Shown in pieces: positions 6,901 to 35,752 of a stretch of 64,000 nucleotides of DNA. The notes beneath the pieces are model-generated. The model was not told where the DNA came from. It saw nothing but the letters and a program-made list of their open reading frames with translations, and searched no databases. The stretch spans positions 481-64,480 of the forward strand of contig VBFZ01000026.1 in NCBI GenBank assembly GCA_005880805.1. Reading direction: 5' to 3'. The position numbers were made by a program, and so were the translations under genes. The first letter of the stretch is position 1. Every line of letters begins with the position of its first letter. The DNA is from Chloroflexota bacterium (GTDB lineage Bacteria; Chloroflexota; Limnocylindria; Limnocylindrales; CSP1-4).

Positions 6901-8295
6901 CTATCTCGGCTTCGCCGCCGACTCCAGCTCCGGTTTGGGCTGACCCTCCCGCCCCACGGCGGTCGTCGCGACCGTCCCGACCTCGGAGGTCAGGGCGTCC
7001 TCGAACCCCGCGCTGACGTCCGGCGTCCCGCTGACGGCATGGGCGACCTCGTGGAGGAGCGTACCCGCGTACGCCTCGAGCGAAGCCAACTGGTCGCGCT
7101 TGATGACGATTCGGCCTTCCTTGGGTTCCCACACGCCGGCAGCCTCTGCATAACCGCTCGCGCCGAGGCGCATCGTCGTCGAGACGAGGATCTCGCGGAG
7201 CCTGGACGGCCGGCCGCCGCCGCGCAGGGCCAGGATCTCGTCCGTCCGGTCGAAGATCGCGCGTTCCTCGGGCGACAGGTCGGCCGGGTCGACGAACGAG
7301 AACTGGAAGCTCTCGTTCCACTGCGACTTGAAGCGATCGAGGTCGATGATCGGCGCACCGGTGATGTCGAGCGCCCCGGCGAGCTTGCGCCGGATGTTCT
7401 GCGGTACGACCACAACCCGATATCCGTCGTTGCGCGCCCGGTCGACGAAGTCGCGTGCGGCGTTGAGCTCCTGGGGCGTGAGGAAGATGACCCTGCCACT
7501 CGCGTTGAGGACCTGGCAGGCATGCACTCCAACGTCGACCAGCTGCACCTCGTCGTGCCAGCGTCCGGTCTCGAACTTCGAGAGATCCTCGGCCAGAGCG
7601 CTGGCCACCCCCTCCGAGGTCGCCGCCAGCACGATCGCCTTGACCCGGTCCGTGTAGGCGGTCCGGCCGACGTTCGATCGCTCGCGGTTGAGCGCCGCCC
7701 GCAGAGCCTTGGTGGGAGAGGTGATGTCGTAGCTGAAGAGGTAGTTGCGCTCCTCGGCGACGCGCAGGCCGTTGACGTAGATGCGGGCCGCCCATCTCGG
7801 CCGGGCGAGGACGACGCCGTAGGGGGTCTCCTCGAGGACCTCGTCGCCGGCGTAGTGGCGGAAGAGCGCCTTGGCCGCCCGGACGTCCTCGTCGGCGACG
7901 CCGGTCAGCTCGACGTCGATGTCGGTGAAGCCGTGCTTGGCCTGCTTCTCTGTGGTGATGTCGCCGAACCGGGATCGGATGCGGACACCGACCCCCCGGC
8001 GGTCGAATGTCGCCAGGGCATCCTTCAGCCCGACGCCGAACTTGCCGACGACCTTCTCCGGGTTGGCCAGCTTCTCGCGGTTCTCGTTCTGCGTGAGGTG
8101 CTCGTAGCGGAGCCCGCGTCCGAAGTCGCGAACGTGCCAGCGACCCCCGGCGTCCTTCGCGATTTCGGGATCCGCGCTGCCGGTCAACGCCGCCTCGTCG
8201 AGCGCGTTCGCGATCACCTCGCGGATCGCATGCGCGACCGTCCAGTTCTCCAGGACGCGCTCGATGTTGAGGTCGAACTCCCGGCGCGACGTCAC
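6901..8295 (-). CDS. GHKL-superfamily ATPase (MutL/MORC/Hsp90-type Bergerat fold) fused to a C-terminal HExxH zincin-like (SprT/Wss1-like or ImmA-like) domain
   Basis: N-box EVIANALDEA, G1 box VRDFGRGL and G2 box GKFGVGLKDA in the first ~130 aa. C terminus has ...MRLGASGYAE...GRIVIKRDQLASLEAYAGTLLHEVAHAVSG...FEDAL (HExxH plus a downstream E). GTG start at 8295; the gene stands alone with its own upstream repeat region. Confidence 0.7.
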   Translation of the reverse strand: MTSRREFDLNIERVLENWTVAHAIREVIANALDEAALTGSADPEIAKDAGGRWHVRDFGRGLRYEHLTQNENREKLANPEKVVGKFGVGLKDALATFDRRGVGVRIRSRFGDITTEKQAKHGFTDIDVELTGVADEDVRAAKALFRHYAGDEVLEETPYGVVLARPRWAARIYVNGLRVAEERNYLFSYDITSPTKALRAALNRERSNVGRTAYTDRVKAIVLAATSEGVASALAEDLSKFETGRWHDEVQLVDVGVHACQVLNASGRVIFLTPQELNAARDFVDRARNDGYRVVVVPQNIRRKLAGALDITGAPIIDLDRFKSQWNESFQFSFVDPADLSPEERAIFDRTDEILALRGGGRPSRLREILVSTTMRLGASGYAEAAGVWEPKEGRIVIKRDQLASLEAYAGTLLHEVAHAVSGTPDVSAGFEDALTSEVGTVATTAVGREGQPKPELESAAKPR

Positions 8296-19672: not shown

Positions 19673-19788
19673 CTCCTCCTCGATGAAGCCAGGACCCACG
19701 GAACGCTGTCACGCACGGTATGTCATCACCGGGCCTTGCGTCAACGCATATCGTACAGGCAGGCGCGAGCGACGAGGAGGTAGTGACC

Positions 19789-21147
19789 GTGTCGAGTCTC
19801 GTCCAGGGTGAGCCGCAGGCTGCGCTGCCGGAAGGGTTCAGGGGCGAGCTGCTGGGGCCTGGCAGTGACGCATACGAGTCCGCGCGACGGGTTTTCAACG
19901 GGATGATCGACCGCCGGCCGGCGCTGATCGCGCGGTGTCGCGGCGTGTCGGACGTCCAGGCGGCAATCGGGTACGCGCGGGCGAACGACTTGCCGGTCGC
20001 GGTCCGCGGTGGCGGCCATAACACGGCGGGGCACGGAACGTGCGATGGCGGCGTGCTGATCGATTTCTCGGTGATGCGAACCGCGCGCGTCGATCCGGCG
20101 TCCCGGACGGTTCGGGCCGATCCGGGCTGCACGTGGACCGATTTCGACACCGAGACTTCGGCCCACGACCTGGCGACGACCGGCGGCACGGTGGGGAGCA
20201 CGGGCATCGGTGGGCTCACGCTGGGCGGCGGGCTCGGCTTCCTCATGGGCAGCTTCGGCCTGTCGTGCGACAACCTCCTGTCGGTCGACCTGGTCACCGC
20301 GGAGGGGGATTTCGTCACCGCCAGCGGCGAGCTGAACAGCGACCTCTTCTGGGGTGTCCGCGGCGGGGGCGGCAATTTCGGCGTTGTGACGTCCTTCGAG
20401 TACCGGCTCCATCCGGTCGGCGAGCTCCTCGCCGGGCTCGTGATCTATCCGATCGAAGCCGCCCGGGCGGCGCTGGAGCTCTTCCGCGACGTCACCTCCT
20501 CCGGCCCCGACGAGCTGAGCTGTGCGTTCGCGATGATCACGGTGCCCGACGGCCCGCCCGTCGCGGTGATCGCGGCGTGCTTCAACGGCCCGATCGAGGA
20601 CGGCGAACGGTTGGTCGCGCCACTCCGCCGCCTCGGTCCTCCGATGGACGACGGCATCCGGCCGATGCGCTACCCGGAGGTCCAGCGCCTCTTCGCGGAG
20701 ATCCCGTTCGGCCTGCAGAACTACTGGAAGGGGCACTTCATCCGGGAGATGCCGGACGACGTGATCGACGCGAGCGTGCGCTCCTTCGAGGGCGTGACCT
20801 CGGCGCATTCGGCGATCCTGATCGAGGCCCCGCACGGCGCCGTGCGCCGGATCCCGGACGGCGAGACGGCGTTCGGGCAGCGTGCGGCCCGCTACAACGC
20901 CAGCGCGCTCGCGATCTGGGAGGACGGCGACCAGGCGCGGCACGTCCGCTGGTCGCGGGAGTACGCCGACGCCGTGGCGAGGTACGCCTCCGGCGGCTAC
21001 ATCAACTACCTCGCCGCAGACGCTTCTGCCGACGAGGTCGCCGGGGCCTACGGCCACGAGCGCTACGAGCGCCTGTTGGCACTCAAGCGCAAGTACGACC
21101 CCACGAACGTCTTCCGCTTCAACCAGAACATCGACCCGACGGAGTGA
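19789..21147 (+). CDS. FAD-linked oxidase, berberine-bridge-enzyme-like (paralog 2)
   Basis: AVRGGGHN, GGGVG motifs and C-terminal YERLLALKRKYDPTNVFRFNQNI; GTG 19789 sits 8 nt after GAGGAGG (start uncertain; ORF open from 19720). Confidence 0.8.
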   Translation: MSSLVQGEPQAALPEGFRGELLGPGSDAYESARRVFNGMIDRRPALIARCRGVSDVQAAIGYARANDLPVAVRGGGHNTAGHGTCDGGVLIDFSVMRTARVDPASRTVRADPGCTWTDFDTETSAHDLATTGGTVGSTGIGGLTLGGGLGFLMGSFGLSCDNLLSVDLVTAEGDFVTASGELNSDLFWGVRGGGGNFGVVTSFEYRLHPVGELLAGLVIYPIEAARAALELFRDVTSSGPDELSCAFAMITVPDGPPVAVIAACFNGPIEDGERLVAPLRRLGPPMDDGIRPMRYPEVQRLFAEIPFGLQNYWKGHFIREMPDDVIDASVRSFEGVTSAHSAILIEAPHGAVRRIPDGETAFGQRAARYNASALAIWEDGDQARHVRWSREYADAVARYASGGYINYLAADASADEVAGAYGHERYERLLALKRKYDPTNVFRFNQNIDPTE

Positions 21148-21286: not shown

Positions 21287-22813
21287 ATGAGCGCGCCGCT
21301 GCCACTCGACAGCCGCCAGGCGCGGATCGCTCGCCATCTGCTGTCAGAGGCCGGACCCGAGAGCGTCGAGGAGATCGCTACCGCGCTCCGGCTTACAACC
21401 CGGGTGGTGCGCTACAACCTCCCGTCGATCGAGACCTACCTGCGTAGCGCCGGACTGCGCCTTGGCCGTCGGCGCGGAGTTGGCATCTGGATCCAGGGCG
21501 AGGAGGACCGGCGAGCGAAGCTCCTGTCGGACCTCGACGATGAGGCAGGTCCGCGGGTCCTGAGCACCGCCGACCGCAAGCTTCGGGCACTCGCCGTTCT
21601 GCTCGACAGGGCCCCCGAGCCGGTCCACCTGGCTGACCTCGAGACGGAGCTGGGAGCCTCGCGAGCGACCGTGCGGCGCGACGTCCGGGCGGCCGAGGCG
21701 TGGCTCGAGAACCATCACCTCCACCTGCAGCACGTGCCGGGCGTCGGTCTCGTGGTCCGCGGCCCCGAAAGCGACGTCCGCAAGGGCCTGCTCGCGCTCG
21801 TGCTCGAGGCCGTGCCGCCGGAAGTGCTGCTGAGCCAGGCGAGTGGCGAGCGGGCCGCCGCACCGGTCGAGGACCGCTCTCTCGGGGTGGCGAGCTTCAC
21901 CGCCCAGCTCGACCTCGGGGCGCATCGCGCGATCCTGCTCGACCAGCTCCGCGAGATGGACGAGAACGAGGCGGGCACGATCCTCGCGACGCTGTACCTG
22001 GCGATCGTGGCGAGACGGATCCAGGCCGGCCGGACCGCCGAGTTCCAGAGCGGCCAGCTTCGATCGCTCATCGACCACCCCGTTGCCGACGTCGCCGGCC
22101 GCATCGCCGCCGCGATGGACCGAACCGGAGGCGTCGTGGTGGGCGACTCGGACATCGCGGCGATCACCGAATTCCTCCTGGGCTTCGTGGAGGTAGGGGA
22201 GAGGCCGGTCGGGACCGACGACGATGAGATGGAGCCGATCGACCGCTTCGTCGCGGCGGCCGCACGGCACCTTCACCCCTCGCTGGCCGACGACGACCAG
22301 CTCCGCCGTAGCCTGGCGGAGCACCTGCGCAGGCTGCGGGTCCGGTTGCGCTACGGCCTGCCCGTCAGCAATCCGCTCGCACACGAAGTCCGCGAGCGAT
22401 ACCCGGACGTGTATGAGGCCGCAACCCGGATCGCCGCCGAGGTCGCGCCGCTCGGCGATACCGGCGTCCCCGCCGACGAGATCGGCTTCCTGACGATGTA
22501 CCTCGCGGGCTCCCTCGAACGGAACCGCCTTCGGCCGAAGATCCGCGTCACCGTCGTCTGCCCGGCCGGGATGGCGACGGCGTGGATCCTCGTTTCGCGA
22601 CTGCTGGCGGTCTTTCCGCAGGTCGATGTAACGAGAGTGGTCTCGAAGACCGCCTTCGAGCGCGGGCCCGACGGCATCGCGACCGACGTCGTGGTCAGCA
22701 CGGTCCCGATCGAGGAGGACGCCGACGGCGTCCCAGCCGTCGTGGTCAGCCCGCTCCTCCGCGAGCGCGACATCAGGCGCCTCAGCCGGTTGCTGGGAGA
22801 ACCGACACACTGA
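21287..22813 (+). CDS. PRD-domain transcriptional regulator of PTS operons (MtlR/LicR-like: HTH + PRD + EIIB-like domain)
   Basis: N-terminal HTH followed by PRD-like repeats; C-terminal EIIB(Gat)-like segment IRVTVVCPAGMATAWIL. ATG 21287 with GAGG upstream; the listed ORF start at 20882 is antisense overlap with the oxidase and was rejected. Confidence 0.75.
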   Translation: MSAPLPLDSRQARIARHLLSEAGPESVEEIATALRLTTRVVRYNLPSIETYLRSAGLRLGRRRGVGIWIQGEEDRRAKLLSDLDDEAGPRVLSTADRKLRALAVLLDRAPEPVHLADLETELGASRATVRRDVRAAEAWLENHHLHLQHVPGVGLVVRGPESDVRKGLLALVLEAVPPEVLLSQASGERAAAPVEDRSLGVASFTAQLDLGAHRAILLDQLREMDENEAGTILATLYLAIVARRIQAGRTAEFQSGQLRSLIDHPVADVAGRIAAAMDRTGGVVVGDSDIAAITEFLLGFVEVGERPVGTDDDEMEPIDRFVAAAARHLHPSLADDDQLRRSLAEHLRRLRVRLRYGLPVSNPLAHEVRERYPDVYEAATRIAAEVAPLGDTGVPADEIGFLTMYLAGSLERNRLRPKIRVTVVCPAGMATAWILVSRLLAVFPQVDVTRVVSKTAFERGPDGIATDVVVSTVPIEEDADGVPAVVVSPLLRERDIRRLSRLLGEPTH

Positions 22814-22913
22814 CTCGACGGTCGAAATTGTCATAAGTCGGTGCGGCCACATTGGGGACTTGTTGTGACGCGGATGCCGCGCGGATCATGCCGCCCTGTA
22901 CAACCCGGAGAGG

Positions 22914-24017
22914 ATGTACAACCCGGAGTGGAGGGTAAGGCTCGTGCAGGAGCGGATCCAACGGCTGGGCGGCAACCTTGCCGCCATCGTCATCCCCAAC
23001 ATCGCGGCCTTCATCGCGTGGGGACTGATCACCGCGTTCGTGATCCCGACCGGCTGGACCCCGAACGAGACGCTGGCCAAGCTGGTCGGCCCGATGATCA
23101 CCTACCTGCTTCCGTTGTTGCTCGGCTACACGGGAGGCAAGCTCGTCTACGGGCATCGTGGTGGCGTCGTCGGGGCAGTGGTGACCGCCGGAATCATCGT
23201 GGGCTCGTCAGTCCCGATGTTCCTCGGCGCGATGATCGTCGGCCCCCTCGGCGGGTACCTCATCAAGAAGTTCGACGAGGCGTTTGCCGAGCGCGTTCCG
23301 ATGGGCTTCGAGATGTTGATGAACAACTTCTCGGCCGGCATCCTCGGCGCGCTGCTTGCCATCGGCGGCGTGCTCGCCATCGGGCCGCTCCTGACGTCGT
23401 TCTCGAATGCCCTGGGGGACTTCGTTCACGGCCTGATCAGCGCCGGCCTTCTGCCACTGGCCGACATCCCGATCGAAGTCGGGAAGGTGCTCTTCCTGAA
23501 CAACGCCATCAACCACGGCGTCCTTGCGCCGCTGGGTGTCGCGGATGCGGCGAAGAACGGCCGCGCGATCGAGTTCCTGCTGGAGACCAATCCGGGCCCG
23601 GGCCTTGGGCTGCTGCTCTCGTTCGCGTTCTTCGGCAAGGGACTTGCGAAGCTGTCAGCGCCGGGCGCGATCGTGATCCACTTTTTCGGTGGCATCCATG
23701 AGATCTACTTCCCGTACGTCCTGTCCCACCCGATCATGATCCTGGCCATGTGGGCGGGTGGCATCTCGGCCGACATCGTCTTCGTGACCACGAACGCCGG
23801 CCTTGTCGCGACCCCCTCGCCGGGCAGCATCTTTGCCTATCTCGCCGTCACCCCACCCGGCCAGCACATTCCGGTGCTGAGCGGCGTGGCGGTCGGAGCG
23901 ATCGTCTCGTTCGCCGTCGGATCGGTCATCCTGCGGTTCGTGCCGGTCAAGGAGGAGGAGGGCGAAGAGGCCCAGGCTCCTTCCCCGGTCGTGACGCCGA
24001 CGCCGCAGCCGGCCTGA
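22914..24017 (+). CDS. mtlA: PTS mannitol-family EIIC permease component
   Basis: Collinear with E. coli MtlA EIIC: [72 protein letters not shown]. Confidence 0.9.
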
Positions 24018-24087
24018 GCCTTCGAGTCCCTCGGCCACCGGCCGGCGGCCCTCTTGCCGGCCGGTGGCACCCTCCCTGGAGATCAGC

Positions 24088-24414
24088 ATGGTCGTGAAGC
24101 GCGCCGCCGACGTGAAGCTCGTCGTGTTCGTCTGTGAGGCGGGGATGGGCTCGAGCCTCATCGGGGCGAACCAGCTCAAGAGGCGGATCAAGGATCTCGG
24201 CCTCGACGTCCGCGTGATCCACTCACCGGTGAACGAGATCCCGCCCAATACGGACGTGGTCGTCTCGCATCAGGGACTGTCCGAGCGAGCCCGCAAGGCC
24301 GCCCCCAACGCTGTGGTCCTCTCGTTCAAGAACTTCCTGAACAACAGCGCGTCGGAGTATCTGCTTCGGAGCCTCGCAGCCGGCGAGGACGTCGCCGAAC
24401 CGCTGGCATCCTGA
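24088..24414 (+). CDS. PTS mannitol-family EIIB component (separate polypeptide)
   Basis: KLVVFVCEAGMGSSL matches the MtlA EIIB phospho-Cys region (IIVACDAGMGSS). ATG 24088 has GGAG 7 nt upstream (ORF open from 24064). Confidence 0.8.
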   Translation: MVVKRAADVKLVVFVCEAGMGSSLIGANQLKRRIKDLGLDVRVIHSPVNEIPPNTDVVVSHQGLSERARKAAPNAVVLSFKNFLNNSASEYLLRSLAAGEDVAEPLAS

Positions 24415-25148
24415 TGGCGACCGAGGTCCTGTCGGCCTCAGCCGTCGTCGTCGGCGCCAGCGCTCCGGACCAGACGGCAGCCATCGATCTCGTCGGATCG
24501 ATACTCGTCGCCGAGGGATGCGTCACGCCCGACTACGTGACCGAGATGCGCGAGCGAGAGCGGATCGTCTCGACGTACCTCGGAAACGGGATCGCGCTGC
24601 CCCACGGCACGAACGAGGCGCGGAGCGCCGTGCTGCGCACGGGCCTGGCGGTCGCCCAGTTCCCGGAAGGAGTCCCTTGGGGAGAGGAGCCCGCATATCT
24701 CGTGATCGGACTCGCCGCGACGTCCGAAGAGCACATCGAGGTCCTGTCGCGACTCGCCAACATCCTCGGCGACGAGGAGCTCTGCCGTCGTCTGGCGACA
24801 ACTCCAGATGCCGCGGAGATCCACCGAACGCTGACGGCGGATGGCGTGGCGCCCCCAGGCAACGGCCATCCGCCAAAAAACGATGAGATCGTGGCGACCG
24901 TCACGATCACCAATCCGGCCGGGCTGCACGCACGGCCGGCCGCGACGCTCGTCGACCGGATCAGGGGCTTCGACGCCGAGATCGTCATCGAGGCCAACGG
25001 CCGCCGTGCCAATGCGCGGAGCATGACGGCACTGCTCAGCCTGGGCGCGGCAGTTGGCGACGGCGTGCGCGTGGTGGCCCGCGGGCCGGGTGCGGATGGG
25101 GCGACAGACGCCGTCATCGCCGTCCTGACCAACCGGCCGGAGGCCTGA
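24414..25148 (+). CDS. PTS EIIA(Mtl)-HPr fusion protein
   Basis: EIIA-Mtl region (YLGNGIALPHGT...LVIGLAA) followed by an HPr domain (ATVTITNPAGLHARPAATLVD); TGATG overlap with EIIB. Confidence 0.8.
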   Translation: MATEVLSASAVVVGASAPDQTAAIDLVGSILVAEGCVTPDYVTEMRERERIVSTYLGNGIALPHGTNEARSAVLRTGLAVAQFPEGVPWGEEPAYLVIGLAATSEEHIEVLSRLANILGDEELCRRLATTPDAAEIHRTLTADGVAPPGNGHPPKNDEIVATVTITNPAGLHARPAATLVDRIRGFDAEIVIEANGRRANARSMTALLSLGAAVGDGVRVVARGPGADGATDAVIAVLTNRPEA

Positions 25149-25149
25149 C

Positions 25150-25449
25150 ATGGCGCGTCTCGATCGCGATGGCCTCCTGAACGCGATTTCCACGTCGCTG
25201 AAGGCCGGTCCCGACCCGGATGGCGTCGCCGACCTGGTCGCGTCGCAAGGCCGGATCAACGTGGCGGCCACCGGCGCCGAGATCGGGCCGGCCATCAAGC
25301 GGCTCGCCCCGCTGCCCGGCTACCGCTGGATCGCGATCAACGGCGGCGACCTGTTCGCCGCGAACCCGCTGACGATCGGCACGAAGGTGGGGATCATCGA
25401 CCACACGGGGCGGGTTCTCAAGAACGCCGACCTTCCTCGTCCGAAGTAA
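25150..25449 (+). CDS. Hypothetical protein, 99 aa, embedded in the PTS operon
   Basis: Starts 2 nt after the EIIA-HPr stop; no recognisable motif (MARLDRDGLLNAISTSLKAGPDPDGVADL...). Confidence 0.45.
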   Translation: MARLDRDGLLNAISTSLKAGPDPDGVADLVASQGRINVAATGAEIGPAIKRLAPLPGYRWIAINGGDLFAANPLTIGTKVGIIDHTGRVLKNADLPRPK

Positions 25450-25459
25450 CGCGTCCGAC

Positions 25460-27184
25460 GTGATCGCGGTCGAAGATCGCTACGCCGCCTACCAGGCGGT
25501 GCCGGCGAGGCTACCGTCGGAGACCCTGGCCTGGAACGTCTACGGCAAGGGGATCGAGGCGGTCGGCCGTGACGGCCGACCCGAGCCGGTGCCGGTCGGT
25601 CGGGCCGCGGCAGATCAGCTGTTGGTCCGGGTGGATGCCGTCGGGCTGTGCTTCTCCGACGTCAAGCTCATCCGGCTCGGCGGCGACCATCCCAAGCTGT
25701 ACGGCCGCGACCTGTCGCGAGAGCCCACCCGACTCGGACACGAGGCTGCCGTCACGATCTTCGAAGTGGGCGGCACATTGGCGGACCGTTTCCGGGTCGG
25801 CCAGCGACTGGCGATCCAGCCCGACATCTACGTCGACGGGCAGAGCACGGCCTATGGCTACACGATCCCGGGCGGCCTGATCGGCTACCAGCTGATCGGC
25901 CCCGAGGTCCTCGCCGCGGACGACGGCGCATACGTCATCCCGGTCGGCGATCGCCTCGGCTACGCGGAGACCGCCTTGACCGAACCGTGGGCGTGCGTCG
26001 AAGCCGCCTACACGCAGCGGCGGCGGCTGGCGCCCGCGACCGCCGGCAGGACCTGGGTCATTGGGCGACCTGACGATGAGCGCGCCTACCGGATCGGAAA
26101 CGTCCTCGACGGCGCGCGGGAGATCGTCCTGACCGACCTCCCTGACGAGCTCCTGGCGGAGATCCGTGGACGGGTTGGGGACCGGGCAAGCGTCACCGTC
26201 GTCGAGCAGGCCGAGGCGATGGGCCCATTCGACGACATCATCCTCCTCGGCCCGCGCTCGGCCGCCCTGGTGTCGAAGGCAGCCGACCTGCTCGCCTTCC
26301 GGGGCGTGCTGAATCTGGTCGCCGACGAGCCGCTCGACGGCCCGGTGGAGCTCGACATCGGCCGGCTCCACTACCACTACACCGCCTTCGTGGGGACGAC
26401 CGAGCTGGACGTCTCGTCCGCGTACGGCGAGAAACGCAACCGTGCCGAGCTCCGATCCGGGGGCACGGCCGTCTTCGTCGGGGCTGCGGGCCCGATGGGC
26501 CAGATGCACATCGAGCGTGCGCTGTCGATGCCGGACGGGCCTGCTCGCCTGATCGGGATCGACCTCGACGAGGATCGCATGGCCGCCGCGGCTGCCCGCC
26601 TGCAGCCGATCGCCGCGACAAACGGTCGCGCGCTCGTGCTCCACGTGCCACAGCCAGGCGAGGCGCTCGCGTCGGTTGTCGAGGCGGAGAACGACGGGCG
26701 CCTCGCCGATGACGTCGTCGTGACGGCGCCTACGCCCAAGGCGGTCGTGGACGGATCGGAGGCGTTGTTGCCGGACGGGATGCTCGTGCTGTTCGCCGGC
26801 GTACCGGTCGGTACACGTGCTTCGCTCGATCTGACGCCGGTCTTCCAGCACGGCGCGCAGTACACGGGTACGTCCGGTTCGCGGATCGCCGACCAGCAGC
26901 GGGTGGTCGACAAGACGCTGTCCGGACTGCTTTCCCCGGGGCGTGCGCTCGGCGCGGTCGGCGGCATCGAAGCGGCGCGGGACGGCCTGCAGGCCATGGT
27001 CGACGGCCGATTCGCCGGGAAGATCGTCATCTTTCCCCAGCTGCGCGGGCTGTCACTGACGTCACTCGAGGACCTCGCCGCCGGAGACCCGGCAATCGCG
27101 GCGGCCCTCGGTCCGGGGCCGACCTGGACGCGCGGCGCAGAGGCTGTCCTCTTCGCGAAATACTGGCCCGCTCCCGACCGGTGA
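25460..27184 (+). CDS. Medium-chain dehydrogenase/reductase (Zn-ADH-like) family protein, unusually long (574 aa)
   Basis: GroES-like N-terminal region (VDAVGLCFSDVKL...GHEAAVTIFEVG) and a Rossmann-like segment (AVFVGAAGPMGQMHI). Confidence 0.65.
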   Translation: MIAVEDRYAAYQAVPARLPSETLAWNVYGKGIEAVGRDGRPEPVPVGRAAADQLLVRVDAVGLCFSDVKLIRLGGDHPKLYGRDLSREPTRLGHEAAVTIFEVGGTLADRFRVGQRLAIQPDIYVDGQSTAYGYTIPGGLIGYQLIGPEVLAADDGAYVIPVGDRLGYAETALTEPWACVEAAYTQRRRLAPATAGRTWVIGRPDDERAYRIGNVLDGAREIVLTDLPDELLAEIRGRVGDRASVTVVEQAEAMGPFDDIILLGPRSAALVSKAADLLAFRGVLNLVADEPLDGPVELDIGRLHYHYTAFVGTTELDVSSAYGEKRNRAELRSGGTAVFVGAAGPMGQMHIERALSMPDGPARLIGIDLDEDRMAAAAARLQPIAATNGRALVLHVPQPGEALASVVEAENDGRLADDVVVTAPTPKAVVDGSEALLPDGMLVLFAGVPVGTRASLDLTPVFQHGAQYTGTSGSRIADQQRVVDKTLSGLLSPGRALGAVGGIEAARDGLQAMVDGRFAGKIVIFPQLRGLSLTSLEDLAAGDPAIAAALGPGPTWTRGAEAVLFAKYWPAPDR

Positions 27185-28110
27185 TCGTGACCGTCACCCC
27201 GAACCCGAGCATCGATCGGACGATCGCGATCGATGCTATCGAGCGAGGCGGGCTGATCCGGGCGCGGCGCGCCACGTCCGAGGCAGCGGGCAAGGGGCTC
27301 AACGTCTCGCGCGCTCTCGCCGAACAGGGCGTCGAAACGATCGCGGTGCTGCCGCTGGCATCGGACACGGCGGCGACCTACCTCGGTTTGCTGGCCGGTG
27401 CGATTCCGCTCCGGACCGTTGCGATCCCAGGGGCGGTTCGCACGAACGTCAGCCTCGTCGAGCCCGACGGGACCGTCACGAAGGTGAACGAGCCCGGCCC
27501 GATCCTTTCCGAGGCACAGGCGGAAGCGATCCTCGCCGCTGCAACGGACGCCACCCGCGAGGGTTGGATCGTGGGTTGTGGCTCTCTGCCGCCCGGGGCG
27601 CCTCTTGACTTCTACGCGCGGCTCGCAAGGCTTGCATCCAGCGATCGCCGAATCGCCGTCGACTCGAGCGGTGAGGCGCTCGCCGCCGCGGCCAGTGCAG
27701 GAGCTTCGTTGATCAAGCCGAACCTGTCGGAGCTGGAGACCATCGCCGGACGCAAGCTGACGACGCTCGGCGAGGCGGTCGACGCGGCTTGCGAGACGGT
27801 CGCGGCCGGCGTCGGATCCGTCCTGCTGAGCGTGGGCCGCCATGGCGCCGTCTGGGTAGCTTCGGGCGGAACGGTCGTCCACGCGGAGGCAGCGGTCCCG
27901 GACGCGGCCAACAACGTCGGCGCCGGGGACGCGCTGCTCGCCGGGTTCCTCGCGCGAGGCGCGGGGGCGCCCGCGCTGTCGGAGGCCGTTGCGTGGTCGA
28001 TCGCCGCCCTCCGCTCGCCGGGCACGCGCATGCTCCCGCTGACCGATGCCGATCGGCGGGCCGTGGTCGTGCACGATCGTGTCGACCGCGACAGAGTGCT
28101 GAGCGCATGA
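27181..28110 (+). CDS. PfkB-family sugar-phosphate kinase (1-phosphofructokinase / tagatose-6-P kinase-like)
   Basis: PfkB signature DAANNVGAGDALLAGFLA; N-terminal MIVTVTPNPSIDRT typical of FruK/LacC. Confidence 0.8.
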   Translation: MIVTVTPNPSIDRTIAIDAIERGGLIRARRATSEAAGKGLNVSRALAEQGVETIAVLPLASDTAATYLGLLAGAIPLRTVAIPGAVRTNVSLVEPDGTVTKVNEPGPILSEAQAEAILAAATDATREGWIVGCGSLPPGAPLDFYARLARLASSDRRIAVDSSGEALAAAASAGASLIKPNLSELETIAGRKLTTLGEAVDAACETVAAGVGSVLLSVGRHGAVWVASGGTVVHAEAAVPDAANNVGAGDALLAGFLARGAGAPALSEAVAWSIAALRSPGTRMLPLTDADRRAVVVHDRVDRDRVLSA

Positions 28111-29858
28111 CCACCGAAATCGCTCCAGGGCGAAGGGTCATCCAGGGGACGCCGGGCGCACCAGGAATCGCCCGCGGCCCATGGGCGCGTTTCGAGCCGG
28201 GCAGGGCGCCCGTGCAACGACAGATCCCTGCCGACCAGGTGGATGCCGAGGTCGGTCGACTGAGCGTCGCAGCCGAACTGGTTGCCGTCGCCGCCGAGAA
28301 GCTCGCGGAGGATGTCCGAAGTGGCGGCCACGGGGACGAGGCGGACATCTTCATCGCCCACGCCGCGATGGCCCGTGACCCGGCCCTGATCGACGCGGCC
28401 GCGAACCACATCCGGACCGGCCTGCTGGACGGGCCGGGCGCCATCCATGCGGCCTCGCGCTCGGTCGCTGACCTCCTCCTCGGCCTGGACGACGAGTTGC
28501 TTCGCGCGCGGGCAACCGACGTCGTCGACGTCGCGGACAGGATCGCGCGCGAGCTGGCCGGTGCGCCTGCCGCCGGAGTCAGCCTCACGGTGCCGTCGGT
28601 CGTGGTCGGCGAGGACCTGCCGCCATCGGTGACCGCGACGCTCCCGCGCGAGAAGATCCTGGGCCTTGCGCTCGAGGGCTCCTCGCCGACCGCGCACGCC
28701 TCGATCCTCGCTCGAGCGTACGGAATCCCTGCGGTGGTGGGCGTGAAGGGGCTGCTGGCGGCGCTCGCGGAGGCCGACGCGACCGTCGAGCTCCTGCTCG
28801 ACGGATCGAGCGGGGAGATCGTCATCGCGCCCGACGCCGCCGACGTCGCGCGCTTCAAGCAGCAGGCCGGACGGGCGGAGCAGGACCGCCGGCAGGCACG
28901 CGAGGAGGCGACGCTCCCGGCACAAACGACCGACGGCACGACGATCACGCTCCTGGCCAACATCGGAACGCCGGCGGACGCGACTGAAGCGATGGAGCTC
29001 GGCGCCCGCGGCGTCGGGCTGTTCCGCACCGAGTTCCTGTTCCTCGAGCGCTCGCAGCCGCCCTCCGAGGACGAGCAGGTCGCCGCATACGGGCAGGTTG
29101 CCGATGCGTTCGCGCCGCACCCGGTGACCGTCCGCCTGCTCGACATCGGCGGCGACAAGCCCATCCCGTACCTGTCGCTACCCGCAGAGCAGAACCCCTT
29201 CCTCGGAGTTCGCGCTCTCCGCCTGACGGATACGCACCCCGACCTGTTCCTGACCCAGCTCCGTGCCTGCTACCGCGCCGCCACCCGTGGCCGCATCAAG
29301 GTGATGGCTCCGATGGTGGCCGACGCCGGCGATGCGGCAACGCTGCGCGCGCTCGCGGAACGCGCCCGCGACGAGGTCGTCGCCGCGGGGCAGGACGCGG
29401 GCGAGGTCGACCTCGGGGTCATGCTCGAGATCCCGTCGGCGGTCCTGGTCGCCGACTCCTACTTCGACGACATCGAGTTCGCCAGCCTCGGGACGAACGA
29501 CCTGCTCCAGTACGCGCTGGCGGTCGATCGCGGCAACGCGGCCCTGGAGCGCTATCGCGATTCATTGCACCCGGCGCTGCTGCGGCTCGTCAAGCTGTCC
29601 GTCGATGCTGCGGCGCGCCACGGCATCGACCTGTCCGTCTGTGGAGAGATGGCGGGCGATCCGCTCGCGGCGCTCGCACTCGTCGCGCTCGGCATCCGAT
29701 GTCTGAGCATGGGTGCTCACAGCCTGCCCGCGGTGCGACGCGCGATCCGTGGGGCCTCCCTCACGGAGCTCGAGCGGGCGGCCGAGGCGGCGCTCGCTGC
29801 CACAAGTGCGGCAGAGGTCAGGGCGACGTTTGCGAAGCTCGTCGATACGGCGAGCTGA
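28107..29858 (+). CDS. ptsI: Phosphoenolpyruvate-protein phosphotransferase (PTS Enzyme I)
   Basis: GGxTSHAAIxARE-like region (EGSSPTAHASILARAYGIPAVVG), PEP-utilising C-terminal (GTNDLLQYALAVDR, CGEMAGDP); ATGA overlap with the kinase. Confidence 0.85.
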   Translation: MTTEIAPGRRVIQGTPGAPGIARGPWARFEPGRAPVQRQIPADQVDAEVGRLSVAAELVAVAAEKLAEDVRSGGHGDEADIFIAHAAMARDPALIDAAANHIRTGLLDGPGAIHAASRSVADLLLGLDDELLRARATDVVDVADRIARELAGAPAAGVSLTVPSVVVGEDLPPSVTATLPREKILGLALEGSSPTAHASILARAYGIPAVVGVKGLLAALAEADATVELLLDGSSGEIVIAPDAADVARFKQQAGRAEQDRRQAREEATLPAQTTDGTTITLLANIGTPADATEAMELGARGVGLFRTEFLFLERSQPPSEDEQVAAYGQVADAFAPHPVTVRLLDIGGDKPIPYLSLPAEQNPFLGVRALRLTDTHPDLFLTQLRACYRAATRGRIKVMAPMVADAGDAATLRALAERARDEVVAAGQDAGEVDLGVMLEIPSAVLVADSYFDDIEFASLGTNDLLQYALAVDRGNAALERYRDSLHPALLRLVKLSVDAAARHGIDLSVCGEMAGDPLAALALVALGIRCLSMGAHSLPAVRRAIRGASLTELERAAEAALAATSAAEVRATFAKLVDTAS

Positions 29859-33970: not shown

Positions 33971-34249
33971 AAGCGCTGCCGTCCGGAGCACATCGCCGAG
34001 CCCGGTCAGAGTGAGCAGCTCCCGGAGATCGGGCGACGTACCGCGCAGGCAGACCCGCCGATCGAGCCGCCGTGCGGAGAGCGCCAGGCGGGCCAGGGTG
34101 TTGATCGTTCCGAGGTCAGGCCGAAGGAGCGCGCCCACGTCGCACTCGATGAAGCTGTCGTCGAAGCGCACCTGCAGGCACGGATAGATGGCCGCGACGG
34201 CATCGGCGGCGTCGGCCTCCTGGTGGGTCAAGGACCCTCCTTTCCACAC
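33863..34249 (-). CDS. STAS-domain protein (anti-sigma-factor antagonist-like)
   Basis: ...[52 protein letters not shown]; the 3' end overlaps the sigma-factor gene convergently by ~108 bp. Confidence 0.5.
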
Positions 34250-34354
34250 GTTGACTGCCCGGCGGCTGCAAATTCATCGACCGGTAACGCGCCGATGAAT
34301 TCAGGGACCTCGAGGGGTCATACGGTCGAAACAGACGATCGACAGGAGCTTCTC

Positions 34355-35752
34355 GTGCAGACGTCACCAGCCCGCCCCTCCGCCGTCTCGATCCCCGAAC
34401 TGCGCGCCGCAGTCAGGGGGCGCGTGATCGCGCCCGGGGATCCCGAATACGACACCGCCCGATCCCTGTTCTATGGCGGCATGGACCGCCATCCCGCCGC
34501 GCTCGTCCGCGTCGCCGACAGCGCGGACGTGTCCCGCGTCGTGACTCTCGCCCGCGACTCAGGATCGGACCTGGCCGTGCGGAGCGGCGGCCACAGCTCG
34601 GTCGGCCACAGCGTCTGGGACAGCTCGATCGTGGTCGATCTGGCCGAGCTCAAGGGACTCGACATCGACCCGAGCGCGCGGACGGCGTGGGCCGGGACCG
34701 GTCTGACGGCCGTCGAGTACAGCACCTCCGCCGCGGCCCACGGACTCGGCACGGGATTCGGCGACACAGGCTCGGTGGGCATCGGCGGGATCACGCTCGG
34801 CGGCGGGGTCGGCTACCTCGCCCGCAAGCACGGCCTGACGATCGATTCGCTGCTGGCGGCAGACGTGGTCACCGCGGACGGCCAGCTCCTGCGAACGGAC
34901 GCAGACAACCACCCCGATCTGTTCTGGGCGATCCGCGGAGGCGGTGGCAACTTCGGCGTGGCGACGCGCTTCCAGTACCGGCTGCACGACGTCAGCGGGT
35001 TCGTCGGCGGGATGCTGATGCTGCCGGCCGATGCGAACGTCGTGGCGTCCTTCATCGAGGCGGCTGAGGCCGCGCCTGAGGAGCTGACGACGATCGCCAA
35101 CGTCATGCCGGCGCCGCCGATGCCTTTCCTGCCCGCGGAACACTACGGGCGGCTGGTCGTGATGGCACTCATGGCGTGGACGGGCAACCCGGAGGCCGGC
35201 AACCGGGCGATGGCGCCATTCCGGGCGCTCGCCGAGCCCATCGTCGACATGGTCCAGGCCATGCCCTATCCGCAGATCTACCCGCCCGAGGACGTGTCGT
35301 ACCACCCGACGGCCGTGGGAAGGACGATGTTCGTCGACTCGATGGACCGCGACGTGGCGGCGACGATCGTCGACTATCTCGAAGGTTCTGACGCATCGCT
35401 GCGGGCTACCCAGCTGCGCGTCCTGGGCGGCGCGGTGTCCCGTGTGCCCGCCGGTGCGACGGCCTACGCTCATCGGGCGAGCCGGATCATGGTCAACCTC
35501 GCAGCGTTCTACGAGGGCCCGGAGGATCGCGGGGTTCGGGATGCCTGGGTCGCACGATTCGCGGCCGCGCTGCGCCAGGGAGACGAGGGGGCCTACGTCA
35601 ATTTCCTGAACGACGAGGGCGGGGATCGGGTGCGTGCGGCGTATCCGGGCGCCACCTGGGATCGCCTGTCCGCGATCAAGGCCCGGTACGATCCCACCAA
35701 CCTGTTTCACCTGAACCAGAACATCCCGCCGGCCTCAATGGCCGCGCGGTGA
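34355..35752 (+). CDS. FAD-linked oxidase, berberine-bridge-enzyme-like (paralog 3)
   Basis: AVRSGGHS, GIGGITLGGGVGY, C-terminal WDRLSAIKARYDPTNLFHLNQNI; GTG 34355 sits 7 nt after GGAG (ORF open from 34223). Confidence 0.8.
   Translation: MQTSPARPSAVSIPELRAAVRGRVIAPGDPEYDTARSLFYGGMDRHPAALVRVADSADVSRVVTLARDSGSDLAVRSGGHSSVGHSVWDSSIVVDLAELKGLDIDPSARTAWAGTGLTAVEYSTSAAAHGLGTGFGDTGSVGIGGITLGGGVGYLARKHGLTIDSLLAADVVTADGQLLRTDADNHPDLFWAIRGGGGNFGVATRFQYRLHDVSGFVGGMLMLPADANVVASFIEAAEAAPEELTTIANVMPAPPMPFLPAEHYGRLVVMALMAWTGNPEAGNRAMAPFRALAEPIVDMVQAMPYPQIYPPEDVSYHPTAVGRTMFVDSMDRDVAATIVDYLEGSDASLRATQLRVLGGAVSRVPAGATAYAHRASRIMVNLAAFYEGPEDRGVRDAWVARFAAALRQGDEGAYVNFLNDEGGDRVRAAYPGATWDRLSAIKARYDPTNLFHLNQNIPPASMAAR

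What the first reader, a model, noticed from the sequence alone, without database searches (positions are those of the whole stretch)
21287..29858. Mannitol-family PTS locus with split MtlA and a non-canonical downstream pathway (dehydrogenase + PfkB kinase instead of MtlD)
EIIC (mtlA-like), EIIB and an EIIA-HPr fusion are encoded as three separate polypeptides behind a PRD regulator. They are followed by a 99-aa unknown protein, a 574-aa medium-chain dehydrogenase, a PfkB-family kinase (FruK/LacC-like) and ptsI. No long-chain mannitol-1-P dehydrogenase (MtlD) is present. A dehydrogenase + PfkB kinase route instead resembles galactitol (GatD + tagatose-6-P kinase) or sorbose/fructose-1-P pathways. 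The real substrate of this mannitol-class permease is therefore uncertain.
Basis: partly seen in the sequence, partly recalled or inferred. Interest (0 to 1): 0.55.

Follow-up and report, generated by a model that had tools for sequence, protein, structure and literature searches.

The report
Mannitol-type sugar uptake operon, unusual dehydrogenase
A soil Chloroflexota bacterium has a complete mannitol-type sugar-import operon in which the usual mannitol-1-phosphate dehydrogenase is replaced by an uncharacterised, internally duplicated zinc dehydrogenase paired with a fructose-1-phosphate kinase, which suggests an undescribed route from mannitol into glycolysis.

Summary
Window 21287-29858 (+) is one tightly packed operon: PRD regulator, Mtl-class EIIC, EIIB, EIIA-HPr fusion, a 99-aa protein, a 574-aa Zn-MDR, a 1-phosphofructokinase-like PfkB kinase and PtsI. 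No MtlD homologue occurs in the 64-kb window or in 82 related loci.

The window comes from a Limnocylindria (Chloroflexota) soil genome. The cluster is conserved across the phylum: 54 of 56 loci have the Mtl-type EIIC upstream of the MDR, and 56 of 66 have the kinase directly downstream.

The MDR is not GatD-like. It belongs, distantly, to the SorE/YggP (L-sorbose-1-phosphate reductase) clade, and it carries an internal duplication of the Rossmann domain. The first copy has lost the GxGxxG loop. No solved structure shows this architecture.

The closest annotated analogue is the cryptic E. coli cmtBA-yggP-yggF operon.

Best inference, untested: mannitol is phosphorylated to mannitol-1-P, oxidised next to the phosphate to fructose-1-P, then converted by FruK to fructose-1,6-bisphosphate.

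The 99-aa protein is a narrowly distributed orphan. It stays next to HPr in mannitol PTS operons, including ones with a canonical MtlD.

I rate this a new variant of a known kind, of moderate interest.

The parts
21287..22813 (+). MtlR/LicR-type PRD transcriptional regulator, 508 aa. It has an HTH_11 domain, a PRD domain and a C-terminal EIIB(Gat)-like segment with a CPAG motif. It has no EIIA domain.
   Evidence: Pfam PRD 46.9 bits and HTH_11 29 bits. It is conserved upstream of the EIIC in related loci. The start is an ATG at 21287, because the longer ORF from 20882 overlaps the BBE oxidase gene.
22914..24017 (+). Mannitol-class PTS EIIC permease, 367 aa, as a stand-alone polypeptide.
   Evidence: TIGR00851 mtlA 457.5 bits against a cut-off of 468.4. 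It is 56% identical to the IIC domains of E. coli CmtA and MtlA. E. coli FruA gives no match.
24064..24414 (+). PTS EIIB, 116 aa from a GTG start. An alternative ATG lies at 24088.
   Evidence: Pfam PTS_IIB 50.4 bits. Cys24 aligns with the phosphorylation site Cys384 of MtlA.
24414..25148 (+). EIIA(Mtl/Fru class)-HPr fusion, 244 aa.
   Evidence: PTS_EIIA_2 108 bits and PTS-HPr 77.6 bits. His64 aligns with MtlA His554 and FruB His62. The HPr domain has GLHARPA at residues 170-176.
25150..25449 (+). u99: a conserved 99-aa orphan protein encoded immediately after HPr. Its function is unknown. I infer that it is an HPr/PTS-associated accessory protein.
   Evidence: It has 470 homologues, all about 99 aa; the 120 listed are 77-98% identical and those carrying a source name are called hypothetical. 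It has no Pfam family. The AF2 model has pLDDT 88 and no PDB fold match. A profile search of 1.84 billion proteins finds only 37 clusters. It stays directly after EIIA-HPr in a rearranged operon (L085). A related module is fused to an HPr N-terminal part after a canonical MtlD (L088). Another homologue follows an MtlD gene (L090).
25460..27184 (+). MDR574: a Zn-dependent medium-chain dehydrogenase of the SorE/YggP clade carrying an internally duplicated Rossmann domain. I predict it is an NAD+-dependent hexitol-1-phosphate dehydrogenase.
   Evidence: Pfam ADH_N and ADH_zinc_N. BLASTP gives two hits against YggP and two against SorE. The Zn ligands C64, H94, E95 and E175 are invariant. The AF2 model has pLDDT 91. 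The nearest PDB folds are ordinary 350-aa MDRs that cover only about half of the query.
26018..26413 (+). Inserted Rossmann-like copy 1 of MDR574, residues about 187-318. It is degenerate: VGRPDDE stands where GxGxxG would be. It is nonetheless strongly conserved (QRRRL, FDDI, PRSA, GRxHYxYTA).
   Evidence: hhalign of residues 186-318 against 319-500 gives probability 98.2% and E 2.8e-13 over 132 columns. The segment is absent from SorE, YggP and GatD in alignment A3. For conservation.
26414..26959 (+). Rossmann copy 2 of MDR574, residues about 319-500. It has an intact GAAGPMG loop and the acidic residue D368 at the end of beta-2, which suggests a preference for NAD.
   Evidence: Alignments A2 and A3. 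Pfam ADH_zinc_N covers residues 363-484.
27181..28110 (+). PfkB-family hexose-phosphate kinase, 309 aa. Its best match is 1-phosphofructokinase (FruK).
   Evidence: TIGR03168 254 bits, above the 216 cut-off. TIGR03828 (1-PFK) 250.5 bits, below the 292 cut-off. The top PDB hits are fructose-1-P kinases (2abq, 128 bits). Orthologues in L026 and L072 pass the 1-PFK equivalog cut-off. The kinase lies within 1 kb downstream of the MDR in 56 of 66 loci.
28107..29858 (+). PtsI (Enzyme I), 583 aa. Its start overlaps the fruK stop codon.
   Evidence: TIGR01417 450.7 bits, above the 341.7 cut-off. It has TAHASILAR at residue 195.

Best explanation
This is a self-contained catabolic PTS operon for mannitol, or a very close hexitol. 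It is typical of Chloroflexota.

Proposed mechanism, step by step:

1. PEP phosphorylates Enzyme I.
2. The phosphoryl group passes to the HPr domain, then the EIIA domain of the fusion protein, then EIIB Cys24.
3. It is transferred to the hexitol as the hexitol crosses the Mtl-class EIIC, giving mannitol-1-phosphate.
4. The usual long-chain MtlD, which makes fructose-6-P, is absent. Instead a SorE/YggP-clade Zn-MDR oxidises the carbon next to the phosphate ester (C2) with NAD+, giving fructose-1-phosphate.
5. The co-transcribed 1-phosphofructokinase converts that to fructose-1,6-bisphosphate for glycolysis.

The PRD regulator controls the operon through PTS-dependent phosphorylation.

Shown here: gene content, domain architecture, presence of the catalytic residues, family relationships and conservation of the gene order.

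Inferred, not shown: the substrate, the regiochemistry of the dehydrogenase (fructose-1-P rather than fructose-6-P), the role of the degenerate first Rossmann copy, and the role of the 99-aa protein (probably an HPr-associated accessory factor).
For: 1. The EIIC sits firmly in the mannitol branch. It is 56% identical to the IIC domains of MtlA and CmtA, scores 457 bits on TIGR00851, and gives no FruA match.
2. The full phospho-relay is intact.
3. The MDR matches K. pneumoniae SorE (6e-23 and 7e-15, including the SorE-specific C-terminal tail) and E. coli YggP (2e-20 and 2e-16). It matches GatD only at 5e-4. YggP is itself 45.8% identical to SorE.
4. SorE interconverts L-sorbose-1-P and D-sorbitol-6-P (PMC12817954). 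That is redox chemistry at the carbon adjacent to the phosphorylated carbon. Applied to mannitol-1-P, the same chemistry gives fructose-1-P. This step is my inference.
5. The kinase's best matches are fructose-1-P kinases. Its orthologues next to MDR574 homologues in Leptofilum and in a Fidelibacterota genome pass NCBIfam's 1-PFK equivalog cut-off (320 and 312 bits, cut-off 292).
6. Linkage is strong. 54 of 56 loci have an Mtl-type EIIC upstream and 56 of 66 have FruK within 1 kb downstream. None of the 82 loci has MtlD, a FruA-type EIIC or a class II aldolase. Within the operon, the MDR is therefore the only visible source of a FruK substrate.
7. A class III FBPase follows the kinase in 9 loci, and a class II FBPase (yggF) follows yggP in E. 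coli. Both fit a pathway that enters glycolysis at fructose-1,6-bisphosphate.
8. H. aurantiacus, H. geysericola and H. giganteus are reported to metabolise mannitol (PMC6210107), and all three carry the cluster.
Against: - No enzyme of this family, including E. coli YggP, was found to have been characterised on mannitol-1-P. I found no published precedent for a fructose-1-P-forming mannitol-1-P dehydrogenase.
- Identity to SorE and YggP is only 25-28%, so regiochemistry may not transfer.
- The window's own kinase scores below the 1-PFK equivalog cut-off (250 bits against 292).
- The six Herpetosiphon-group loci (L057, L059, L065, L068, L069, L070; five named species plus one related MAG) and four others (L034, L041, L046, L071) lack an adjacent FruK.
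- H. llansteffanensis has an apparently intact cluster but tested mannitol-negative.
- In a Fidelibacterota genome the MDR-FruK pair occurs without a nearby PTS. A phosphorylated hexitol from a PTS is therefore not the only possible input.
- I could not scan whole genomes for mtlD, fruA or fruK located elsewhere.
Confidence: 0.45

Rival explanations
1. The substrate is still mannitol, but the MDR is simply a non-homologous replacement for MtlD and makes fructose-6-P. On this reading the PfkB kinase has one of two roles. It may be a PfkB-type 6-phosphofructokinase completing the path to fructose-1,6-bisphosphate. Or it may serve fructose-1-P that arises from fructose entering through the same, probably sole, PTS.
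For: - The TIGR03168 family to which the kinase belongs also contains Pfk-2 and tagatose-6-P kinases. After the top 1-PFK hit, the PDB scores are close together: 1-PFKs at 101-128 bits, Pfk-2 at 100 and tagatose-6-P kinase at 99.6.
- The window kinase falls below the 1-PFK equivalog cut-off.
- Herpetosiphon clusters work without an adjacent kinase.
- PTS-linked MDR polyol-phosphate dehydrogenases that oxidise far from the phosphate do exist. GatD is one (annotation).
Against: - The MDR is far closer to SorE and YggP than to GatD.
- Two orthologous kinases pass the 1-PFK equivalog threshold, while their Pfk-2 and LacC scores are about half that.
- To my knowledge, no Mtl-class EIIC is known to transport fructose.
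- MDR-FruK linkage is kept even where no PTS is nearby (L072).
Confidence: 0.2
2. The permease takes a different polyol or ketose, for example glucitol, galactitol, D-arabitol, L-sorbose, D-tagatose or D-psicose. The MDR and the kinase would then process another ketose phosphate, such as tagatose-1-P or tagatose-6-P to tagatose-1,6-bisphosphate.
For: - The EIIC scores just below the TIGR00851 cut-off.
- It is equally similar to CmtA, whose natural substrate is unclear, and to MtlA.
- To my knowledge, kinases of the 1-PFK subfamily include tagatose-1-P kinases.
- JGI names some of the MDR homologues 'L-sorbose 1-phosphate reductase'.
Against: - 56% identity to MtlA across phyla is high for a change of specificity.
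- No tagatose-bisphosphate or other class II aldolase was found in any of the 82 loci, and no SorD-type glucitol-6-P dehydrogenase in the operon; an SDR homologue lies more than 5 kb downstream in only two loci.
- The true sor operon uses a Man-family PTS plus an SDR.
- The reported mannitol phenotype of three Herpetosiphon species fits mannitol.
Confidence: 0.2
3. The MDR works in the reductive direction, converting fructose-1-P to mannitol-1-P or another hexitol phosphate. It would serve to make a compatible solute or to balance redox, rather than in catabolism.
For: - The characterised relative SorE acts physiologically as a reductase.
- The MDR-FruK pair occurs without a PTS in one genome.
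Against: - The gene sits inside an uptake operon controlled by a PRD regulator.
- No hexitol-phosphate phosphatase was noted in the ORFs I annotated next to the cluster (window, L026, L057, L072, L085); the 82 loci were not screened for one.
- FruK would compete for the same substrate.
- The acidic residue at the end of beta-2 suggests NAD rather than NADPH.
Confidence: 0.05

Closest known systems
E. coli cryptic mannitol operon cmtB-cmtA-yggP-yggF-fumE(yggD)-yggC, also present in Photobacterium
   Same: A Mtl-class PTS (CmtA IIC is 56% identical to the window EIIC) is followed directly by a SorE-clade Zn-MDR (YggP). No MtlD is present. The operon has a link to fructose-1,6-bisphosphate metabolism through yggF, and it also encodes a P-loop NTPase, YggC, that I suspect (from memory, untested) is a kinase.
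   Different: - YggP has a single Rossmann domain and is 425 aa.
- The putative kinase there would be YggC, a P-loop NTPase, not a PfkB 1-PFK.
- IIC and IIB are fused.
- HPr and EI are encoded elsewhere.
- There is no PRD regulator and no u99.
- The E. coli operon is itself functionally uncharacterised, so it offers a parallel, not an explanation.
L-sorbose operon sorCDFBAME, with SorE as the L-sorbose-1-phosphate reductase (Klebsiella, E. coli, Lactobacillaceae)
   Same: The dehydrogenase belongs to the same MDR clade. Shared features are the C(F/L)SxxK, HxK, GPMG and GTSG motifs, the C-terminal W..AE tail, and the absence of a structural Zn lobe. It acts on a PTS product that carries a 1-phosphate.
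   Different: - The sor operon uses a Man-family EIIABCD PTS.
- It needs the SDR SorD to reach fructose-6-P.
- It has no kinase.
- SorE is 410 aa with one Rossmann domain.
Canonical mannitol PTS operons (mtlADR, mtlARFD)
   Same: Same class of EIIC, EIIB and EIIA. In Firmicutes, the same type of PRD activator (MtlR).
   Different: MtlD (long-chain mannitol-1-P 5-dehydrogenase, Pfam Mannitol_dh) is absent here and in all 82 related loci. To my knowledge, canonical operons carry no fruK, ptsI or HPr.
Fructose PTS operon fruBKA
   Same: Both have an EIIA-HPr fusion (the best NCBIfam hit is the FruB-type fused IIA/HPr, 196 bits) and both have FruK in the operon.
   Different: The EIIC is Mtl-type, not FruA-type. 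The fusion lacks the central M domain of FruB. A dehydrogenase is intercalated.
Galactitol operon gatYZABCD, with GatD as the MDR
   Same: A PTS plus a Zn-MDR hexitol-phosphate dehydrogenase.
   Different: The PTS belongs to a different family. GatD is only marginally similar (E 5e-4) and has the structural Zn lobe. The gat operon includes an aldolase, and none is found here.

Membership tests
PTS Fructose-Mannitol family, mannitol (MtlA/CmtA) branch | The EIIC domain is homologous to MtlA IIC and reaches the family model score. | tested here: inconclusive
   TIGR00851 scores 457.5 bits against a curated cut-off of 468.4, just below it. Identity to the IIC domains of E. coli CmtA and MtlA is 56% over 343-349 aa. 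E. coli FruA gives no tblastn hit. I treat it as a member of the branch, with specificity unproven.
PTS Fructose-Mannitol family, mannitol (MtlA/CmtA) branch | The phosphoryl relay residues are present: EI His, HPr His15, EIIA His and EIIB Cys. | tested here: met
   EIIB Cys24 aligns with MtlA Cys384. EIIA His64 aligns with MtlA His554. HPr has GLHARPA. EI has TAHASILAR.
PTS Fructose-Mannitol family, mannitol (MtlA/CmtA) branch | Transports and phosphorylates D-mannitol. | not testable with these tools
   Support is indirect only. Three Herpetosiphon species that carry the cluster are reported mannitol-positive and one is reported negative.
Canonical mannitol catabolic operon (MtlA plus MtlD) | A long-chain mannitol-1-phosphate 5-dehydrogenase (Pfam Mannitol_dh) is linked to the PTS. 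| tested here: not met
   There is no MtlD hit in the 64-kb window or in the 82 related loci.
SorE/YggP clade of Zn-dependent MDRs (L-sorbose-1-phosphate reductase, KEGG K19956 by name) | Sequence homology over the whole enzyme, including the clade-specific C-terminal tail. | tested here: met
   Against K. pneumoniae SorE: residues 22-314 at 28% identity, E 6e-23, and residues 308-567 at 25% identity, E 7e-15. Against YggP: 2e-20 and 2e-16. Clade motifs are shared in alignment A3. JGI names some homologues accordingly.
SorE/YggP clade of Zn-dependent MDRs (L-sorbose-1-phosphate reductase, KEGG K19956 by name) | Catalytic Zn ligands (Cys, His, Glu, Glu) and a GxGxxG dinucleotide loop. | tested here: met
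   C64, H94, E95 and E175 are invariant, and so is G341-x-x-G344-P-M-G347.
SorE/YggP clade of Zn-dependent MDRs (L-sorbose-1-phosphate reductase, KEGG K19956 by name) | Single-Rossmann architecture of about 410-425 aa. | tested here: not met
   The protein is 574 aa and has an extra, degenerate Rossmann copy at residues about 187-318. It is therefore an architectural variant.
SorE/YggP clade of Zn-dependent MDRs (L-sorbose-1-phosphate reductase, KEGG K19956 by name) | Reduces L-sorbose-1-P to D-glucitol-6-P, in an operon with a Man-family sorbose PTS and SorD. | tested here: not met
   The context is a Mtl-class PTS. There is no SorD-type SDR in the operon and none adjacent in the 82 loci; an SDR homologue lies more than 5 kb downstream in L043 and L061 only. 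Enzymatic activity cannot be tested here.
1-phosphofructokinase (FruK, TIGR03828 equivalog) | Reaches the curated equivalog score. | tested here: inconclusive
   The window protein scores 250.5 bits against a cut-off of 292, and passes the broader TIGR03168 model (254 against 216). Orthologues in L026 (320 bits) and L072 (312 bits) pass, and L085 (264 bits) does not. The best PDB matches are fructose-1-P kinases.
GatD-type galactitol-1-phosphate 5-dehydrogenase | Full-length homology to GatD and a structural Zn lobe. | tested here: not met
   BLASTP gives E 5e-4 over 58 aa only. The Cys-rich lobe is absent in alignment A3.

The most novel reading that the evidence does not exclude
The operon encodes a so far undescribed PTS route for mannitol. 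The route runs through a fructose-1-phosphate-forming mannitol-1-phosphate 2-dehydrogenase, then 1-phosphofructokinase. A new double-Rossmann MDR architecture carries out the first step.

On this reading the same chemistry would explain the long-unassigned E. coli cmtBA-yggP operon. The conserved degenerate Rossmann copy and the HPr-adjacent 99-aa protein would be new regulatory partners of the PTS.
Probability: 0.4. Interest if true: 0.65.

Novelty: new variant of a known kind. Interest (0 to 1): 0.5.

Why it matters
If the proposed chemistry is right, it adds a third way for bacteria to catabolise mannitol. The two known routes are PTS plus MtlD, giving fructose-6-P, and mannitol 2-dehydrogenase plus fructokinase. 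The new route enters glycolysis at fructose-1,6-bisphosphate through fructose-1-P.

It would assign a function to a family of several thousand environmental proteins (3461 to 5271 hits in two searches, each capped at 8000 scored candidates), which are currently labelled 'threonine dehydrogenase-like' or 'L-sorbose 1-phosphate reductase'.

It gives a concrete, cheap hypothesis for the E. coli y-gene yggP and the cryptic cmt operon.

It also describes what looks like the main, possibly only, PTS of many soil and wastewater Chloroflexota. That matters for carbon-use predictions made from MAGs, because automatic annotation would score mannitol use as incomplete when mtlD is missing.

The internally duplicated cofactor domain is also a clean case of domain duplication and degeneration in a well-studied enzyme superfamily.

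Tried and rejected
- **Dihydroxyacetone kinase.** My first guess for a 574-aa protein next to EIIA-HPr and PtsI was a DhaK/DhaL-type dihydroxyacetone kinase. Pfam shows an MDR, so I rejected this.
- **Galactitol-like pathway.** Rejected.
- **True sorbose pathway.** Rejected because the PTS family is wrong and there is no SorD.
- **u99.**
  - Pfam at E up to 10 gave nothing, and NCBIfam gave nothing.
  - Foldseek against PDB gave nothing below E 0.4.
  - The profile search of 1.84 billion representatives found only a narrow family.
  - Its remotest members (P0390, P0393, P0396) also have no Pfam family.
  - I considered whether u99 is a degenerate HPr. The fold search did not retrieve any HPr structure, so I do not claim this.
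- **Finding a SorE sequence.** I looked for the sor operon near metA-malB in E. coli REL606 and did not find it. I obtained SorE instead from a K. pneumoniae record in the plasmid collection.
- **Literature.** Searches for a fructose-1-P-forming mannitol-1-P dehydrogenase, for yggP, and for a Chloroflexi mannitol PTS found nothing relevant.
- **Regulatory elements.**
  - The promoter and terminator scan of the operon gave no more than chance.
  - Rfam found nothing in the operon.
- **Flanking genes.** They are unrelated to sugar metabolism.

Full report
**Source and gene content**

The window is 63-72% G+C. It comes from a soil Chloroflexota genome of the class Limnocylindria. A MAG contig, DASXSA010000135, carries the same operon at 93-100% amino-acid identity.

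On the + strand, between 21287 and 29858, lie eight genes with high GC3. From EIIB onwards they abut or overlap by a few bases.

- A PRD/HTH regulator.
- A stand-alone Mtl-class EIIC.
- EIIB.
- An EIIA-HPr fusion.
- A 99-aa ORF with no family assignment.
- A 574-aa Zn-type medium-chain dehydrogenase.
- A PfkB kinase.
- PtsI.

The residues that carry the phosphoryl group are all present.

Flanking genes are unrelated. Upstream lie an ABC transporter, a PLP enzyme and a BBE-type oxidase. Downstream, on the other strand, lie a DUF1905 protein and a hydrolase. The operon boundaries are thus clear.

**Absence of MtlD**

tblastn with E. coli MtlD, FruA, GatD, GatY, GatZ and YggF finds nothing in the 64-kb window. 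The operon sits mid-window, with more than 20 kb on each side.

In 82 related loci with up to 10 kb of flank, there is likewise no MtlD, no FruA-type EIIC and no class II aldolase.

**The locus is a conserved, phylum-wide unit**

A scan of one genome per species returned 191 relatives of the 574-aa protein. The best 80 are almost all Chloroflexota: Limnocylindria, Anaerolineae, Ardenticatenales, Chloroflexales and five Herpetosiphon species.

- Among loci with enough sequence, 54 of 56 have the Mtl-type EIIC upstream on the same strand.
- 56 of 66 have the PfkB kinase within 1 kb downstream.
- PtsI lies upstream of the dehydrogenase in 40 loci and downstream in 24. The cluster is therefore rearranged between lineages but kept together.

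Two searches of the metagenomic protein collection, each capped at 8000 scored candidates, found 3461 and 5271 homologues. The 240 listed are nearly all about 570-590 aa.

**The permease**

The EIIC is 56% identical to the IIC domains of both E. coli MtlA and CmtA. It scores 457.5 bits on TIGR00851, where the cut-off is 468.4. It does not match FruA. It belongs to the mannitol branch.

Published phenotype tables list H. aurantiacus, H. geysericola and H. giganteus as mannitol-positive (PMC6210107). All three carry the cluster. H. llansteffanensis has an apparently intact cluster but tested negative. This support is suggestive, not decisive.

**The dehydrogenase**

Pfam detects ADH_N at residues 51-126 and ADH_zinc_N only at residues 363-484. 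That leaves about 200 residues unexplained.

While fetching E. coli comparators I found that the cryptic mannitol PTS genes cmtB-cmtA are followed by yggP, annotated as a 'putative zinc-binding dehydrogenase' of 425 aa, and by the class II FBPase gene yggF.

- BLASTP of the 574-aa protein against YggP gives two hits, and the YggP Rossmann region is used twice. Query residues 27-314 align to YggP 8-315 (E 2e-20). Query residues 295-540 align to YggP 147-381 (E 2e-16).
- YggP is 45.8% identical to the annotated SorE of a K. pneumoniae sor operon.
- The 574-aa protein matches that SorE in the same double fashion, at 6e-23 and 7e-15. The match includes the SorE-specific C-terminal tail.
- GatD matches only marginally, at E 5e-4 over 58 aa.

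A profile-profile comparison of residues 186-318 with residues 319-500, built from 55 family members, gives probability 98.2% and E 2.8e-13 over 132 columns. The extra length is therefore an internal duplication of the cofactor-binding domain.

- Copy 2 keeps GAAGPMG and an acidic residue at the end of beta-2.
- Copy 1 has VGRPDDE in place of the glycine loop, yet is strongly conserved across the family.
- The Zn ligands C64, H94, E95 and E175 are invariant.
- The structural Zn lobe is absent, as it is in SorE and YggP.

AlphaFold2 gives a confident model, with pLDDT 91 and pTM 0.88. Its best PDB matches are ordinary MDRs of about 350 aa, such as human sorbitol dehydrogenase (TM-score 0.81 normalised by target length). 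They cover only about half of the query (TM-score about 0.5 normalised by query length). No solved structure shows this architecture. Neither YggP nor the 574-aa protein has a closer solved relative by sequence.

**The kinase**

NCBIfam places the kinase in the 1-PFK 'hexose kinase' subfamily (TIGR03168, 254 bits against a cut-off of 216). The 1-phosphofructokinase equivalog is its best specific hit, at 250.5 bits, which is below the 292 cut-off. Pfk-2 and LacC models score about 90-100 bits.

The best PDB matches are fructose-1-P kinases.

The orthologous kinases next to the dehydrogenase in Leptofilum (L026) and in a Fidelibacterota genome (L072) pass the 1-PFK equivalog cut-off, at 320 and 312 bits. 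The Fidelibacterota locus has the dehydrogenase-kinase pair without a nearby PTS. The pair therefore looks like the conserved functional unit.

**Proposed mechanism**

SorE interconverts L-sorbose-1-P and D-sorbitol-6-P (PMC12817954). It forms its own clade within the polyol-dehydrogenase family of MDRs (PMC11519228). This is redox chemistry at the carbon adjacent to the phosphorylated carbon.

Applied to mannitol-1-P, the same chemistry yields fructose-1-P, which is the substrate of the co-transcribed kinase. In contrast, MtlD oxidises the distal end and yields fructose-6-P; I state this from established knowledge.

Within the operon no other source of fructose-1-P is visible, because no FruA-type EIIC is present.

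Two further observations fit an entry into glycolysis at fructose-1,6-bisphosphate. A class III FBPase follows the kinase in 9 loci, and yggF follows yggP in E. coli.

The gamma-proteobacterial cluster cmtB-cmtA-yggP-yggD-yggC is conserved in Photobacterium. It ends with a P-loop NTPase, YggC. From memory, YggC is related to 'fructose transport system kinases'; I did not test this.

I therefore propose this route: mannitol, then mannitol-1-P, then fructose-1-P, then fructose-1,6-bisphosphate.

The gene content, the family relationships and the linkage are shown. The substrate and the regiochemistry are inferred. I put the full mechanism at about 0.45.

The main rivals are these:

- The product is fructose-6-P, and the kinase acts as a PfkB-type 6-phosphofructokinase or serves fructose (0.2).
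- The substrate is a different polyol or ketose (0.2).
- The dehydrogenase has a reductive role (0.05).

**The 99-aa protein**

This is a real, strongly constrained gene. It has 470 homologues, all about 99 aa; the 120 listed are 77-98% identical, and in several genomes they are more conserved than the neighbouring dehydrogenase.

It has no Pfam or NCBIfam family. A confident AF2 model (pLDDT 88) shows a small alpha/beta fold with no PDB match. A profile search of 1.84 billion representative proteins finds only 37 clusters.

Three contexts are informative:

1. In a more distant lineage the operon is rearranged to MDR, PfkB, a 260-aa unknown, PtsI, the regulator, EIIC, EIIB, EIIA-HPr and then u99. 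The small gene still follows EIIA-HPr directly (L085 and L086).
2. In a low-GC contig, a protein made of the first 54 residues of HPr plus the u99-like C-terminal module follows EIIB, EIIA and a canonical MtlD (L088).
3. In a high-GC contig, a u99 homologue directly follows an MtlD gene that is 38% identical to E. coli MtlD (L090).

The protein therefore travels with HPr in mannitol PTS operons, whichever dehydrogenase is used. I infer an accessory or regulatory role at HPr. This is unproven.

**Comparison with known systems and novelty**

- The PTS part is a member of a known family.
- The dehydrogenase is a distant member of the SorE/YggP clade and an architectural variant of it.
- The pairing of a Mtl-class PTS, a SorE-like MDR and FruK, without MtlD, is not described in any paper I could find.
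- The nearest analogue, E. coli cmtBA-yggP, appears to be uncharacterised: I found no functional study of it.

I classify the finding as a new variant of a known kind and rate its interest as moderate, at 0.5. It is a coherent, testable pathway prediction. It concerns a large environmental protein family and a long-standing E. coli gene of unknown function, but it stays within familiar PTS logic.

Noticed in passing
window 22897-22928: A 14-nt direct repeat, TGTACAACCCGGAG, occurs twice, 18 nt apart. The second copy starts one base into the EIIC start codon at 22914. It could be a small duplication, or it could mean the start site is ambiguous.
   Followed up: no
window 5341-6705 (-), 19720-21147 (+), 34223-35752 (+): Three paralogous BBE-type FAD-linked oxidases (FAD_binding_4 plus BBE) lie within 30 kb. 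One sits immediately upstream of the PTS regulator, but it is not linked to the operon in related genomes.
   Followed up: partly
L026 about 11760-12125, and 19 other loci (for example L035, L064, L075): A conserved integral membrane protein of about 115 aa and unknown function lies between the dehydrogenase and FruK in Anaerolineae and Ardenticatenales. It is absent from the window lineage.
   Followed up: partly
L026 13825-15834 and 8 other loci (L029-L031, L033, L035, L038, L039, L045): A class III fructose-1,6-bisphosphatase (Pfam FBPase_2, 992 bits) lies 0.5-0.9 kb downstream of FruK. This parallels yggF downstream of yggP in E. coli.
   Followed up: partly
L026 7828-9843; L057 7839-9983: Outside Limnocylindria, EIIA is a separate ORF of about 150 aa. 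The HPr-like segment appears at the N-terminus of a long PtsI ORF of 671-714 aa, which suggests an HPr-EI fusion instead of the EIIA-HPr fusion seen in the window. I infer this from tblastn coordinates and ORF lengths only.
   Followed up: no
L085 1521-2303 and L086 1523-2305: A 260-aa protein with no Pfam or NCBIfam hit lies between the PfkB kinase and PtsI in a rearranged version of the operon.
   Followed up: partly
L088 2157-2507 (GCA_001625865.1, LULN01002355.1): A 116-aa ORF joins the first 54 residues of HPr, including the His15 and Ser46 regions, to the u99-like C-terminal module. It follows EIIB, EIIA and a canonical but split MtlD. The MtlD split suggests sequencing errors in this contig, so the fusion needs confirmation.
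   Followed up: partly
L072 3600-12700 (Fidelibacterota chromosome CP070638.1): The MDR574 homologue and a bona fide 1-PFK occur without any PTS within 10 kb. Nearby are a CUT1-type ABC sugar transporter, an ordinary 339-aa MDR and an Fe-ADH. The source of a phosphorylated substrate there is unexplained.
   Followed up: partly
L069 4112-11725 (Herpetosiphon llansteffanensis): The cluster looks intact, with all ORFs at full length. Yet the species was reported mannitol-negative, while three congeners with the same cluster are positive (PMC6210107).
   Followed up: partly
window 51124-51200 (-): A single tRNA-Arg (TCG) gene is the only Rfam or ARAGORN hit in the 64-kb window.
   Followed up: no
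window 6901-8295 (-) and 45583-46269 (-): Two ORFs with high GC3, of 464 aa and 228 aa, have no Pfam hit at E 1e-5.
   Followed up: no
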